Shown here one piece after another: positions 22,501-28,500 of a DNA stretch of 64,000 nt (positions within the stretch are counted from its first letter, which is position 1; every line of letters begins with the position of its first letter). Origin of the DNA: Perna viridis (lineage: Eukaryota); assembly GCA_037379345.1 (NCBI GenBank), contig CM074511.1, forward strand, positions 30,014,862-30,078,861. Reading direction: 5' to 3'. A program made the position numbers.

Positions 22501-25500
22501 AAAAAAAAAAAAAAAAAAACAACAGTGGAAACGAACAGACAGAGGTATTTGTTATTTAAGTGTAAGTTTTTGTACGAACCAGAAACACGCATGTCTGAAA
22601 CTCACCAACTCACCAACCTGACAATACAATTATTCAAGGATGCTTTTGCTATTGAAAAATACTTTTATTTGACCTCTGCATCATTGGATTTGCTTAACAA
22701 AATCTTTCAACAAAATGTAAGAAAATGATATTTTTGGCAGAGGTATATGCCCCTAAAATATTCATTTTTATTTCTTTCCAATGAAATTACAACTCAATTT
22801 ACCAAAATGATATGGAAACATTATCTTTTTTCCTTGGTTCCGATGGTGCCAATTGTCAGCTCAAACTTTCAAAATGTGCCTTTTTTATACCTTTCTCTCC
22901 CTCTGTCTAATTCTTATATAGACTGATAACTACTTTACATTATTCAGTGTTAAAAAAGGGAGTTAGAAGCATACATGAGGACAAACCAATTCGGTAAAAG
23001 TTTTTTTTTTCTTTTTTTGCTTTTGTTTTATTCTCTCAAAGGAAGTTAATCTAGAACTCCGTTATCTATTTATAACTCTGCCTAATACTAATCAATTCGA
23101 CGAAACAATCATTAAACAATGCGTTAATTGTACAAGTATCTATTTGGTTTACATGAAATTGACTAGATTTACATTTTATTTTTTTTTCATTTCATAATTA
23201 CAAAATGATTTGTCAAGGCCTTTATTGTACAGGTATGCGTTTGATGCTCGTGGAATTGAGAAGTTTTATATGTTTTCCATGATAAATTCCAGATAAGGTG
23301 GATGCAGCTAATAACAGGTCTATAGACGATTTTATGAAAGAACTACATGGTATGTTGTATTTATTTTCTTCTCTTACATTCTAACAATCGTTGACTGTAA
23401 ATATTTCAAAAGAAGTATGATCTTTTTCTTTCCTACATGTTCAATAATGATACATATTCAGAGAAGGTCTCTTCTTGAATGTTCCAAGAAGTTGTCATTG
23501 AAATTTACTATGCATGTTTTGAATTCTAACACAGCCTCTGTCCTCGTACAATAAATTTATTGTCTAAATATAGTAGATAATATTTGTGTTATCATTCCTT
23601 TTACAAAACGTTTTTTGTATAATAACATTGAAATAATAACGAAAAACATTTACTCATATCAATGAATTACTATATTTTTGGAAATTGCATGCAGACGCTT
23701 TTAGTTCATTAAATGTTTAATTCTATCATGTCAGTTTATAAAGAGAAAAACTGATATGGTTAAAGGTTACAAATGGACTTTCAACGTATAATCTAAATAC
23801 TAAATAGTAAATACTTACAAATCTCCAGTAAATGTAAAAAACACCTTTGATAAGCTCTTAGGTAAGGGTCCCGTTAACAAAATGTAATATCCACGGTAAT
23901 TGAATGATGACAATTCTTCATAAGCAAACGAGAAAAAAAATATAACGACACAGGGTCAAATTAATGACCAACATCACCTGACTGTCAAAAGGCACCTAAC
24001 ATGAATAAGTTCATTCAAAAATATACCAAATTCTTACATGGGGTACTTTAACATCCAACATATAGACAAAATAAAATGTCCACTTAAAGAACGCTCGCAG
24101 TAACTGAATGCATGCTAAAACACATTAAAGACTGACCACACCATGAAAACTATTACATTAGAAATAATCGGTCACTGCGTACAATTCAAATCGACTGGAT
24201 TTGGACTAGTAACGTTAAATACCAAATTAACAAGAACTTTCATCTGTGGCAACATCCCTTCAGCACCTGTGTATGGAGTGTTCATATCACAACTTATACG
24301 TTATGCCAGAGCTTGCCGAAACTACGCAGACTTTTTGTATCGCACTAGAACTCTAACAAATAGGCTTCTGGAACAGGGTTTTGTTGCTACAAGATTGAAG
24401 TCATCACTACAGAAGTTCTATGGTCGTCATCATGAACTCGTGAATCGTTATGGTGTATCCATCTGCACCATGAAAACTGATTTATTCAACGGGTCATAGT
24501 TTTCCGTTCCTCGTTTGTCTACCCTGGACTTGACTTTTATGAGCAACTCGGCGGGTGTTTCTAGAAAAGCAGAGGACGCTTACCCTACCTCTGCACCTGG
24601 TCCATGCTCCCAGTTTTTAGTGGAGTTGCTCATTTGCTTTTGTTACTTTGTATGTATGATTTTAGTTACTGTATGTTCTTTGTTGTGTATGTCTGTTTTC
24701 CATGTCGGGTCTTTGTCCCTGGATTATATTCCTTTGATTACCGCTATAACCTTTGTTCCCTTGACTACTCTTTGAAGTAGTGCAATACTAGACAAAAATA
24801 TGAGTTTTGTTCATGTAGGTTTGCAAAATGGGTGTAAATCTCTATTTGTGAAATCACGATTCAAAGAATAGACAATAAATTGATAATCGTATTCTTTATT
24901 AATAAATATATTAAGGACCGTCGATAAAATGATAGGGTTTTGTTTGAAAGAATGTGCTTTATAGACTTTCTTCTGTGGAAAACAATTTTTAATTAAGAAA
25001 CTGCAAGTGTTATTAGATTTTTATATCAAAGTATTGCAACGATGAAAACAGTTAGGAATTCTTGGTAACGATTTGAATGCTTAATTTATAATTCATTCTT
25101 AACTATAATAATCTCGAAGATCATATAAACAAGCAAATTGTGGGTTTCATATTGAAATCTTACTGTATTAATTTATATAGATAATCACCCACATTTATAA
25201 AGACGATATAAATTTCAGGGTCATGTCTAGGGGTTAACCCTGAAACACAGCCAGATGAATTATTGAAATATTCAACGATCATTTTTAATCGTAAGTTGTT
25301 TTTATATTTGTAATGGATGTAACATATACATGTAGCTCCACACAAATAAATGATTGATAGCCTCTTATACTGACTTTCATGCATGTAATAATAAAAACGT
25401 TGCTTTAGTTCTGGAATATAAAATTAATTTCAACGCTGGACATTGTCCCTAACCTTCCTCTATTAATAGATTTATGGTCCGTTTCATGCATTTATGACTT

Positions 25501-28500
25501 TATTCGTTTATTATTTGCATACATTGTATTACCGTTTATGCGTCTGCGCTGTGTTTGTTGTTTTTATCGACCAATATTTCCCTTTCTCTTTCTCTTCTTT
25601 TTATTTTATTCTATACCATCAAAATCTTCTTTCTGTAAAGAAAAAAAACATATTTTATATTTAATTTACGTAGACAAAACAATTGTGATGTATTTAAGTT
25701 TATAACAACTTGTTGGTTACATGGTTTATATAAAACTAAAGTCTAATCAGTACATTTGCAGACTATAGCAAAACAGACAGGAGAGAATCTAACCACCCTA
25801 ACTTAACCTTTAGCACAATTCATTGACAAACGACTGAGACACGATATTGAAACTGTCATTATAATTTGGAAGTGTTAAATGATAAGGATGCTGTGGTTTA
25901 TAATACGATAACAGACTGGACAATGATTAATGTTTGCTAAAGTAATTAACAAACATCATTATGCAACGCATAGATGAAAACAAAATTTAAAAATATTAAT
26001 CTACAAATTATTGAATTTCGTCATATATGTTGAATTGCCAACAAATTCATCAAGGGTCGAATCCACTCTCAACAAATAATAAAATACTAACTTGCATAGC
26101 CTGCATGATAAATATATTAATTCAGAGTTTAATCATTTGTAATGAAATAACTTGTTTTATGTAACCAATTTATACTTATTTCAAAGTTCGTTATAAAGGA
26201 ACTCAAGCGATTTTGTACTCTTCATTTTCTTTCAGGAATAAGAATTTACAAAGAAGCATTGGACATGAAGAGAAAAATTGTGAAAGAAGTGCAAGAAGTT
26301 TTTGACGGTAGGAATGAGTGTTCAGTACTTGATAGAAAATGTTGCTATTACCACATGACGGGTAAATCTTGTGAATGCATAATTTCACAGCTTGGTCTTT
26401 GAATACAGGCATTAAAGTTTCGCGGTCATTATTTATCGCGTCTATAGAAAGAGTTTTCATTCCCCTCCAGAGATCCCCAATTCTCCCGAAACAAGCGAAA
26501 ATTCTCGCTATACGATAATACAAACAATGGTAATATCTTCAGGTTAAAATTTTATTATTGATTTTTAACAGAGCTTTGTGAAACCTTAATTCTAGAGGAT
26601 CTTGAGCCACCTATTTTTTATATGGCTTTAATTATTAAAAACTCGACATACCATTGTATTTTTAAACTATATAAATTACCTAGAAGATCTACTCAAGTGG
26701 AACGTTAGTAAATTTTAAATTACATAAATTGTTTTCACTATATTTTGTTATTAATTTTATTGACAGTAACATGGGATGCCACAGAATTCGAACAGGTCTA
26801 CAATGTAATGATTAGAGATTCTAAAGGTTGTTCATATTACATTTTTTTATCTTTCACAGTACACCGTTAATCTAAAAAATAAAACGTTGTAATTTCGAAA
26901 AGTTGTATTCAATTACGAAGAAAAAACAAAGAAAACACGATAAAGAGAAAAAAGGAAACCAAAATGTTCGGTCTAGGGGCCGTCATCTTAGGTGAATCGC
27001 ATTTCACGAGAGGAGAAACAGAACTGTAGACCCAGAAGAAACTCAAATGATAATGGGAGTGGATAAGATTCTTAATGTTGTGCATTTAAGTATGCATGTA
27101 TATAATTGGCTACCATGACAACAACAACAATGACAACATGGTATGATTTTGAATAGGTCGCTACATGTTCATCTTAAAATAAATACTATATTAAACTACT
27201 GCCATTAGCTTGTTTTCGCACGAGATGTATTTTCATGAACAACAAAACAATTCGGAAAAAAAGAATAGCGGCAACAAAATCTCTTTATAACACATAGTTT
27301 GGTCAAAATATTAAATAGCCGCGAAATTGGATAGACATCCCAAATCGCACAAATAAAAATAAATAAATCGGAATACATTATTCTTCTTAAAATAATTCAG
27401 GTGTGTTCGTTTATAACAATGAAAGCACATTTTGATATTTATACAATCGTAATATGTTCATAGTAAGTATGAATTAAATTTCTAGTATTTTTCTATACTA
27501 TTGACCAAATCAGTTTTATTTGCCCTATTGAAGAAGTCTGCCAGGTTCATGACTGTAGTGACATACAACCAAGGACTACAGGTCCACATAAAATACACGC
27601 AAAAGGACCGACGTCCTTTCTAGTCACGTGTAATATGGATGTAGACGGAGGTAACTGGACGGTAAGATTCTTTTTAGGAAACAATATCGATAGCAAAAAC
27701 TATTTAATATGAATATTAAGATATTTTTTTTTATTTAATTTCATTTAATATATCACATATGTCCCATTCCAGTTAAAACTTGAAAACCTTTCATTTCGTT
27801 CGAAAAATAGATGCATTTATGAAACCATATATACAAGTTGTATTATCAGCATATATTCGATTTTGTTGTATTGTTTTACAGTCAAAACAACCAACTAACG
27901 TTTAAACAAAATTATTTCAAAATTACTTTTTTCACTTACTTTTCTAAGAATGCAAAAACACTATAAATGTTGAAAACTCAAAAAGATGAAATGTAAAACG
28001 AAATAATCTGCGACGTATTTGTGAATAGACACAAATTTAATTATATAGCTATTTTCCAGGATTCCATCATATGTATTTTTTACTCAGTTCATATATTTTA
28101 GATCTTGTTTTTCTGTGCGCTTCGAAGGTGGCACAGCAATTGCTCATCGAATAAATTCTTTTACATTTCGCTCTTTTTAGGTTATTCAACAACGACAGGA
28201 TGGATCTGTAGATTTTAAGAGGACATGGCAAGAGTACAAAGACGGTTTTGGAAATCCAGAAGGGGAACTGTGGCTAGGTAATAACTATCCTTTACAAGCT
28301 TTTAACGACAAAAATATTTATTACAAAATAAAACTGTCGATTTTATTTAACATACTATTGAGTGAAAGGACACGGCCACAGCACATATTTCAGCAAGGCC
28401 TATGTAAATAATTTCCTGGCACACTGGTATCCCTCTAGTAATAAGATATTATGTGCCCTCTCTGTACATACAATATCTGTACTACAGAGTAGGAAAAATA

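What the first reader, a model, noticed from the sequence alone, without database searches (positions are those of the whole stretch)
23293..27545. Unrecognised about 90-aa N-terminal domain defines this FReD subfamily
Seen: between the signal peptide and FBG, all copies have a region with no Gly-X-Y collagen (ficolins) and no Ig pattern (gastropod FREPs). Conserved features: an N-glycosylation sequon at one position in all five copies with exon 2 (NRS A2, NKT C2, NST D, NRT B1 and B2); DxFMxEL; a Cys in G[SA]CLG/ETCIG; an amphipathic YKEALDxKRKIxxEVQExFD; TWDSxExxQ; and a second Cys 68 residues later (EVC/DMC) just before the FBG DCS motif. Inference: a compact disulfide-clamped helical bundle or oligomerisation neck, possibly an undescribed domain architecture among bivalve immune lectins.
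Basis: partly seen in the sequence, partly recalled or inferred. Interest (0 to 1): 0.65.

Follow-up and report, generated by a model that had tools for sequence, protein, structure and literature searches.

The report
Helical neck region of FReD lectin genes

Summary
Window 23293-27545 holds four mini-exons (57, 72, 72 and 60 nt, all phase 1, GT-AG) and the start of a fifth. They belong to an intact 9-exon, about 329-codon gene (copy A2) whose last four exons match Pfam Fibrinogen_C. Five paralogues lie on the same strand; only A2 and C2 are intact.

- The N-x-S/T sequon is present in 5 of 5 copies with exon 2.
- The first extra Cys is present in 5 of 5 copies with exon 3.
- The second extra Cys, 68 residues on and 5 before the first FBG Cys, is present in 4 of 4 copies with exon 6.
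- The other quoted motifs are consensus strings that 1 to 3 of 5 copies match literally.

The exons evolved under purifying selection: pN is below pS in 14 of 14 pairs.

Exon 4 is a strongly amphipathic helix with 3.5-residue periodicity, and the end of exon 3 is in the same register. There is no collagen, no Ig, no Pfam hit and no PDB homologue, but the searches had to go exon by exon, so power was low.

Papers describe signal peptide + short coiled coil + FBG as a common mollusc layout. My best reading is an oligomerisation neck with flanking interchain cysteines. Structure predictions could not be run.

Verdict: a new member of a known kind, of modest interest.

The parts
18239..18335 (+). 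A2 exon 1: start codon, hydrophobic signal-peptide-like core, then a conserved tail (TN.VTSQ.NR..I[EQ]). The donor is phase 1.
   Evidence: It is 52% identical to C2 exon 1 by tblastn. No signal-peptide predictor was run.
23293..23349 (+). A2 exon 2 (57 nt, phase 1-1): N40-R-S sequon followed by a short helix-prone DDFMKELH segment.
25219..25290 (+). A2 exon 3 (72 nt, phase 1-1): Cys54, a Pro/Gly-containing loop (G56, P59, P63), then the start of the long helix (residues about 64-75).
26236..26307 (+). A2 exon 4 (72 nt, phase 1-1): 23-residue amphipathic helix with heptad periodicity, residues 77-99.
   Evidence: helical moment, shuffle fraction 0.005 or less in 4 of 5 copies and 0.019 in B2; 3.5-residue power, shuffle fraction 0.0002; helix propensity.
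26767..26826 (+). A2 exon 5 (60 nt, phase 1-1): TWD motif, then a helix-prone segment without significant heptad periodicity, residues 101-119.
27534..27661 (+). A2 exon 6: Cys122 (EVC), then five residues on the first FBG Cys (DCS). This is the start of the fibrinogen-like domain. The donor is phase 0.
   Evidence: PF00147 profile positions 4-45, 14.7 bits, below cut-off on its own; ficolin-1 and angiopoietin-1 align from the DCS Cys onward. Searches give the boundaries.
28181..28277 (+). A2 FBG exon 7.
   Evidence: PF00147 positions 45-80, 48.3 bits; splice sites.
30127..30291 (+). A2 FBG exon 8.
   Evidence: PF00147 positions 78-134, 60.1 bits..
34268..34509 (+). A2 FBG exon 9 with the DRDND calcium-site motif, two Cys and the stop codon.
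   Evidence: PF00147 positions 141-219, 68.7 bits. MFAP4, FIBCD1 and ficolin-2 at E about 1e-16.
44236..51445 (+). Copy C2, the second intact paralogue with the same 9-exon plan. Exons: e1 44236-44332, e2 45580-45639, e3 46081-46152, e4 46549-46620, e5 46796-46855, e6 47385-47512, then 47746-47842, 49241-49405 and 51207-51445.
115..5632 (+). Copy A1, cut by the window start and decayed. It has exon 4 (one base shorter than in A2, so out of frame), exon 5 at 486-545, exon 6 with an in-frame stop after EVC, partial FBG exons, and a stop at a Trp codon of the last exon.
10764..16241 (+). Copy B1, decayed. It has a remnant of exon 1, exon 2 at 12264-12323, exon 3 at 13195-13266, no detectable exons 4-6, and FBG remnants with stops.
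37654..41382 (+). Copy B2, decayed. It has exons 2-5 (37654-37713, 38527-38598, 39428-39499, 39944-40003). The exon 6 reading frame ends after 24 codons. No exon 7 was found. The last two FBG exons carry stops.
57308..63018 (+). Copy D, which runs off the window end. It has exon 1 with its only ATG after the hydrophobic stretch, exon 2 at 57951-58007, exon 3 from 59412 with no GT at the expected phase-1 donor, exon 4 at 62285-62356 and exon 5 at 62959-63018.

Best explanation
The region is the stalk of a secreted single-FBG lectin of the FReD kind.

**Anatomy.** After the signal peptide comes one N-glycan site, then a short helix, then a loop carrying Cys54. Next is a long amphipathic, heptad-patterned helix from about residue 64 to 99, possibly continuing to 119. 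Cys122 follows, five residues before the fibrinogen-like head.

**Proposed mechanism.** I infer that the helix pairs with the same helix of other chains to form a short coiled-coil neck. Cys54 and Cys122 would then form interchain disulfides at its two ends. Several sugar-binding heads would so be held together for high-avidity binding and agglutination, the job that collagen does in ficolins.

**Shown:** the gene model, the FBG identity, conservation under purifying selection, helical periodicity, and the positions of the Cys residues and the sequon.

**Inferred:** self-association, the number of chains, and which cysteines pair.
For: - FBG identity: four A2 exons cover Pfam PF00147 positions 4-219 of 221. 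PDB relatives are MFAP4, FIBCD1, ficolins and tachylectin 5A.
- Each intact copy has 6 Cys: 4 at canonical FBG positions plus Cys54 and Cys122.
- Exon 4 has a helical moment above shuffles in 5 of 5 copies (fractions 0.001-0.019). Its 3.5-residue periodicity has a shuffle fraction of 0.0002.
- Residues 63-75 of exon 3 have the same phase as exon 4 (40 versus 67 degrees).
- Neither intact copy has Pro or Gly among the full codons of residues 64-118.
- The N-terminal exons are almost as constrained as the FBG. For A2 versus C2 they are 45 of 90 identical with pN 0.292, against 122 of 200 and pN 0.253 for the FBG.
- Literature, passages read: a coiled coil next to FBG is common in molluscs and is proposed to oligomerise (PMC8878817, PMC11741071, PMC7588048). 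An extra Cys just N-terminal of the FBG makes interchain disulfides in MFAP4 (bioRxiv 10.1101/2023.09.22.558839). Angiopoietin-1 carries a cysteine in the linker before its fibrinogen-like domain; in engineered CMP-Ang1, replacing it together with a coiled-coil cysteine changed the oligomeric state (PMC4609988).
Against: - No structure model and no oligomer prediction was obtained.
- No formal coiled-coil predictor was available.
- Only about 33-36 residues show heptad order. Exons 2 and 5 show none (shuffle fractions about 0.65), so this is not a plain long coiled coil.
- The hydrophobic face of exon 4 is wide, about 4 of 7 positions. That fits helix packing inside one chain equally well.
- An even number of extra Cys also allows one intrachain bond.
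- There is no expression or protein evidence.
Confidence: 0.55

Rival explanations
1. This is the first reader's main idea: a compact, monomeric helical domain clamped by one intrachain Cys54-Cys122 disulfide. It would be a distinct small fold that caps or positions the FBG head.
For: - There are exactly two extra Cys, both fully conserved.
- There are four helix-prone segments separated by possible breaks: G52, the G56/P59/P63 loop, N75, and the TWD motif.
- The hydrophobic face of exon 4 is wide.
- Exons 2 and 5 lack heptad order.
Against: - By helix-length reasoning (inference, not a model), Cys54 lies before the start of a helix of about 36 residues. Cys122 lies after a 17-residue helix that could fold back over only half of it. 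The two Cys would then be roughly 20 Angstrom or more apart unless the long helix kinks.
- Related lectins use extra N-terminal Cys for interchain bonds (papers cited above).
Confidence: 0.2
2. The helical region is mainly a docking handle for another immune protein, such as a protease or another recognition protein, rather than a self-association neck.
For: In shrimp PmFREP the N-terminal coiled-coil region mediates direct binding to the LGBP protein and raises phenoloxidase activity (PMC12751051, abstract and passages read). The strong conservation of surface-exposed charged positions in exon 4 (K81, K87) would fit a partner interface.
Against: No candidate partner was seen or tested here. 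The same paper also states that the coiled coils drive higher-order assembly, so this reading may add to the neck reading rather than replace it.
Confidence: 0.15
3. The region is a passive spacer with no specific function, conserved only because the copies are recent duplicates.
For: All copies lie in one tandem cluster.
Against: - The copies are old. Synonymous sites are saturated or nearly so in most pairs, while pN stays at 0.10-0.44.
- Introns no longer align.
- Splice phases, exon lengths, the sequon and both Cys are kept.
Confidence: 0.05

Closest known systems
Bivalve single-FBG FREPs with an N-terminal coiled coil, such as scallop CfFREP (PMC11741071) and the general mollusc FReD layout (PMC8878817)
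   Same: A signal peptide, about 35 helical or coiled-coil residues in the same place (CfFREP 55-92, here about 64-99), then a C-terminal FBG with four conserved Cys and a calcium-site Asp motif. There is no Ig and no collagen.
   Different: CfFREP has a second coiled coil after the FBG, which is absent here. The two extra Cys, the conserved sequon and the four phase-1 mini-exons are not mentioned in the passages I read. Sequence relatedness of the N-terminal parts could not be tested.
Interceding region (ICR) of gastropod FREPs (PMC7588048)
   Same: It lies directly upstream of the FBG, has no homology to named domains, is 14-133 aa long in most, and contains a coiled coil of about 35 aa in FREP4, the FREP that multimerises.
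   Different: Gastropod FREPs carry one or two IgSF domains upstream. None is present in the exons found here. Homology of the ICR to this region was not tested.
MFAP4 and angiopoietin-1, vertebrate FBG proteins with an extra Cys before the FBG
   Same: An unpaired Cys lies just N-terminal of the FBG. MFAP4 C34 forms an intermolecular disulfide (bioRxiv 10.1101/2023.09.22.558839). Ang1 has the order coiled coil, then a Cys-bearing linker, then the FBG; in engineered CMP-Ang1, mutating the linker Cys together with a coiled-coil Cys gave only dimers (PMC4609988). The last FBG exon here is closest to MFAP4 in PDB (E 8e-17).
   Different: MFAP4 has no coiled coil and a much shorter N-terminal part. 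According to that paper's domain scheme, Ang1 has a superclustering domain and a separate coiled-coil domain ahead of the linker.
Ficolins
   Same: A secreted lectin with a C-terminal FBG head that works as an oligomer. FBG exon 6 aligns best with ficolin-1.
   Different: Ficolins oligomerise through a collagen-like Gly-X-Y region, and none exists in this window.

Membership tests
FReD (fibrinogen-related domain) proteins, Pfam PF00147 | Full-length fibrinogen C-terminal globular domain | tested here: met
   four A2 exons match profile positions 4-45, 45-80, 78-134 and 141-219 of 221. Three are above the 22-bit cut-off on their own (48.3, 60.1 and 68.7 bits). The first scores 14.7 bits.
FReD (fibrinogen-related domain) proteins, Pfam PF00147 | Four conserved Cys forming two disulfides, and the calcium-site Asp motif | tested here: met
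   Positions only. The DCS and TCNMD Cys align with ficolin-1 and angiopoietin-1. The NC...DC pair and the DRDND motif align with MFAP4. The bonds themselves are not shown.
Ficolins | Collagen-like Gly-X-Y repeats between the N-terminus and the FBG | tested here: not met
   0 runs of 4 or more Gly-X-Y triplets in six frames of the whole window.
Gastropod FREPs (IgSF + ICR + FBG) | One or two IgSF domains upstream of the FBG | tested here: not met
   no Ig family in the 5 N-terminal exon translations of A2. Exon phases link exon 1 directly to exon 2 in A2 and C2. The limit is that only identified exons and one intron ORF were scanned.
Mollusc single-FBG FReDs with an N-terminal coiled coil | N-terminal signal peptide | tested here: inconclusive
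   A Met followed by a 9-13-residue hydrophobic core is seen in A2 and C2. No signal-peptide predictor was on hand.
Mollusc single-FBG FReDs with an N-terminal coiled coil | Coiled-coil segment between the signal peptide and the FBG | tested here: inconclusive
   Heptad-periodic amphipathic helix in exon 4 (shuffle fraction 0.0002), in register with the end of exon 3. No COILS or SMART-type predictor and no oligomer model could be run.
Angiopoietin / angiopoietin-like proteins | Long N-terminal coiled-coil domain (a separate coiled-coil domain plus a superclustering domain in Ang1) before the FBG | tested here: not met
   Only about 33-36 residues show heptad order, and at most about 55 residues are free of Pro and Gly. 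The whole part between signal peptide and FBG is about 105 residues.

The most novel reading that the evidence does not exclude
The roughly 93-residue module would be a discrete domain family that no public model covers and that is specific to one bivalve FReD lineage. Its marks are the sequon, Cys54, the long helix, the TWD motif and Cys122. Its four symmetric phase-1 mini-exons (57/60, 72, 72 and 60 nt) would let single exons be skipped without breaking the frame. One gene could then make necks of different length, with or without Cys54 or the glycan, and so lectins of different oligomeric state.
Probability: 0.15. Interest if true: 0.45.

Novelty: new member of a known kind. Interest (0 to 1): 0.2.

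Why it matters
The oligomeric state sets the avidity and agglutinating power of FBG lectins. Knowing which part of these expanded invertebrate families builds the oligomer, and which cysteines lock it, would help in reading their diversity and in designing recombinant versions. As it stands, this is a careful annotation of an ordinary member, not a new principle.

Tried and rejected
**Joined model.** The joined spliced protein was not built, searched or folded. All searches were done exon by exon, so the negative results carry little weight: the queries were only 19-25 residues long.

**Pfam on the N-terminal exons.** There were only two sub-threshold hits, taken as chance:
- CBFD_NFYB_HMF at E 0.17 on exon 1.
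- DUF3113 at E 0.13 on exon 3.

**PDB profile searches of exons 2-5.**
- Exon 2 hit 3 de novo designed helical repeat proteins, with no single stretch passing. I rejected these as compositional.
- Exon 3 gave 5 hits at E 0.17-1.4, taken as chance.
- Exons 4 and 5 gave 0 hits.

**Internal exon duplication.** Rejected: hhalign probabilities among the four exon profiles are 0.3% or less in 6 of 6 pairs.

**Motif text search in papers.** 0 papers held any of four motifs. Figures are not held, so printed alignments would be missed.

- Structure prediction for single-exon peptides: not accepted.
- Complex prediction for three copies of the exon 4 peptide: never accepted, with the queue full or no usable answer. 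No verdict.

**Searches closed or not applicable.** Whether this module 'defines a subfamily' outside the window, and which organism this is, therefore stayed unchecked.

**Papers not held.** Skazina & Gorbushin 2016 and Hanington & Zhang 2011. Supplements were not consulted.

**Repeat-family ORFs.** 0 of 6 had a Pfam family.
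Full report
**What is there**

The window is AT-rich DNA (about 31% G+C) with no N. It carries six tandem copies of one gene family, all on the + strand.

The finding's coordinates cover copy A2, whose model has nine exons:
- exon 1: 18239-18335
- exon 2: 23293-23349
- exon 3: 25219-25290
- exon 4: 26236-26307
- exon 5: 26767-26826
- exon 6: 27534-27661
- FBG exons: 28181-28277, 30127-30291 and 34268-34509

Every intron has GT-AG ends. The five introns that split the N-terminal part are all phase 1. 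Exons 2-5 are therefore symmetric mini-exons of 57, 72, 72 and 60 nt.

My count is 322 full plus 7 split codons, or 329 residues, for both A2 and C2. One search printed 330 because it counted one read-through codon at the exon 6 donor; one search exposed this.

Read exon by exon, the last four exons match Pfam Fibrinogen_C positions 4-219 of 221. Their closest solved relatives are MFAP4, FIBCD1, ficolins, tenascin-R and tachylectin 5A. The gene is a secreted single-FBG lectin of the FReD kind.

I could not determine the organism.

**State of the six copies**

Copy C2 (44236-51445) has the same intact plan. The other four copies are decayed:
- A1 is cut by the window start. Its exon 4 is one base shorter than in A2, it has a stop after EVC in exon 6, and it has a stop in the last exon.
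- B1 keeps only a remnant of exon 1, exons 2 and 3, and FBG remnants with stops.
- B2 keeps exons 2-5 but has a truncated exon 6 frame and stops in the last two FBG exons.
- D has no ATG before its hydrophobic stretch and no GT at the expected exon 3 donor, and it runs off the window.

'All copies' therefore means two working genes and four relics.

**Check of the observation**

Per-exon alignments give the following:
- Sequon at one column: 5 of 5 copies.
- Exon 3 Cys: 5 of 5.
- Second Cys: 4 of 4.
- 68-residue spacing: all 3 copies in which it can be counted.
- DxFMxEL: literal match in 3 of 5.
- The long helix string: literal match in 1 of 5.
- TWDSxExxQ: literal match in 2 of 5.

The last three are consensus strings. 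In one search the tool printed M for the first residue of C2 exon 4 because it read TTG as a start codon; the residue is Leu.

In A2 numbering the sequon is N40-R-S. The extra cysteines are Cys54 and Cys122, and the first FBG Cys is Cys127. Each intact copy has six Cys, four of them at canonical FBG positions.

There is no collagen-like run in any frame of the window and no Ig match in the exons.

The tail of exon 1 is also conserved among A2, C2 and D. The conserved part between signal peptide and FBG is therefore nearer 105 residues than 90.

**Is it more than chance?**

Over the N-terminal exons, pN is below pS in 14 of 14 copy pairs. Where dS was not saturated (9 pairs), dN/dS is 0.14-0.74, and 8 of those 9 are at or below 0.48.

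For A2 versus C2 the region is 45 of 90 identical with pN 0.292. The FBG domain is 122 of 200 identical with pN 0.253. The N-terminal region is thus nearly as constrained as the lectin head.

At the DNA level, paralogous gene copies align with each other at only three places: around exon 6 and at the last exon (A1 with A2), and at one FBG exon (B1 with B2). All other self-matches belong to dispersed repeat families. The conservation is therefore not an effect of recent duplication.

**Anatomy of the region**

- Exon 4 is a textbook amphipathic helix. Its helical moment exceeds shuffles in 5 of 5 copies (fractions 0.001-0.019). Its column-wise 3.5-residue periodicity has a shuffle fraction of 0.0002.
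- Hydrophobic residues fill positions 83/84, 90/91 and 97/98, and mostly 80 and 94.
- Residues 63-75 of exon 3 show weaker periodicity (fractions 0.07-0.10) but almost the same phase (40 versus 67 degrees). A continuous helix from about 64 to 99 is likely.
- Exons 2 and 5 are helix-prone by a crude propensity scale (the parameters are recalled from memory). They show no heptad order (fractions about 0.65).
- Among the full codons of the intact copies, Pro and Gly occur at 56, 59 and 63, and not again until 119; the split codon at the exon 2/3 junction adds Gly52.
- The four exons are not repeats of one another (hhalign probability 0.3% or less).

**Search for known domains**

I did not build, search or fold the joined protein.
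- Pfam gave no hit above cut-off for the five N-terminal exons.
- PDB profile searches gave only designed helical repeats for exon 2, chance-level hits for exon 3, and nothing for exons 4 and 5.

With queries of 19-25 residues these negatives are weak.

Structure prediction was not accepted. The oligomer prediction never entered the queue (ten tries, last).

**Comparison with what is known**

All papers below were read as passages found by term search.
- PMC11741071 describes scallop CfFREP with a signal peptide at 1-19, a coiled coil at 55-92 and FBG from 104. It cites oyster and prawn FREPs with one N-terminal coiled coil.
- PMC7588048 describes the gastropod FREP interceding region as lacking homology to other domains, with a 35-aa coiled coil in the multimerising FREP4.
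- PMC12751051 reports that the shrimp PmFREP coiled coil supports higher-order assembly and binds a partner protein.
- MFAP4 uses an extra Cys just before its FBG for an intermolecular disulfide (bioRxiv 10.1101/2023.09.22.558839).
- Angiopoietin-1 has a Cys-bearing linker between coiled coil and FBG; in engineered CMP-Ang1, mutating it together with a coiled-coil Cys gave only dimers (PMC4609988).

The layout found here is therefore the known one. What I did not find in these passages is:
- the particular set of conserved marks (sequon, Cys54, Cys122);
- the four-mini-exon structure.

A text search for four motifs found no paper. Figures and supplements were not searchable.

**Most likely mechanism**

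The long helix forms a short coiled-coil neck with the same helix of other chains. Cys54 sits before it and Cys122 after it, and these make interchain disulfides. Several FBG heads are thus presented together.

This is inference from periodicity, Cys positions and analogy; I put it at 0.55.

The intrachain clamp in a compact bundle (0.2) is not excluded. Simple helix-length reasoning places the two Cys at different ends of the helical part, which counts against it. A partner-docking role (0.15) could coexist with the neck role. A passive spacer (0.05) is contradicted by the selection data.

**Verdict**

- The claim of a new architecture is not supported.
- The thing is a new member of a known kind. 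Interest is about 0.2.
- The boldest reading still open is a lineage-specific module whose symmetric exons allow frame-preserving exon skipping and hence variable necks. I give it 0.15.

Noticed in passing
window 5561-5572, 16173-16184, 41314-41325: The same Trp codon of the last FBG exon (GIEW in intact A2) is a stop in three decayed copies: TGA in A1 and TAG in both B1 and B2. The shared TAG suggests that the B copy was already broken when it duplicated.
   Followed up: partly
window 2441-3259, 7226-7718, 18553-19050, 19635-20427, 24237-24772 (-), 39075-39416, 53681-54291: A dispersed repeat family with at least 7 copies, several of them inside introns of the FReD genes. It carries a conserved open reading frame of up to 172 aa. 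None of the 6 ORFs tested had a Pfam family.
   Followed up: partly
window 44942-45142: A minisatellite of 21-base units (9.6 copies, 73% matches) lies in intron 1 of copy C2. It is open in several frames on both strands. I took it as non-coding repeat, not as an exon.
   Followed up: partly
window 27647-27661 and 47498-47512: The near-universal GGGWT motif of FBG domains reads GGNWT in A2 and C2. This creates an N-x-T sequon inside the lectin head.
   Followed up: no
window 1-64000: Only 2 of the 6 tandem FReD copies are intact. This is a birth-and-death pattern, with relics interleaved among working genes.
   Followed up: yes
window 1-64000: No tRNA gene and no Rfam family at gathering score was found on either strand.
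   Followed up: yes
window 43856-43960: A tandem repeat of 25-base units (4.2 copies, 87% matches) lies between copies B2 and C2.
   Followed up: no
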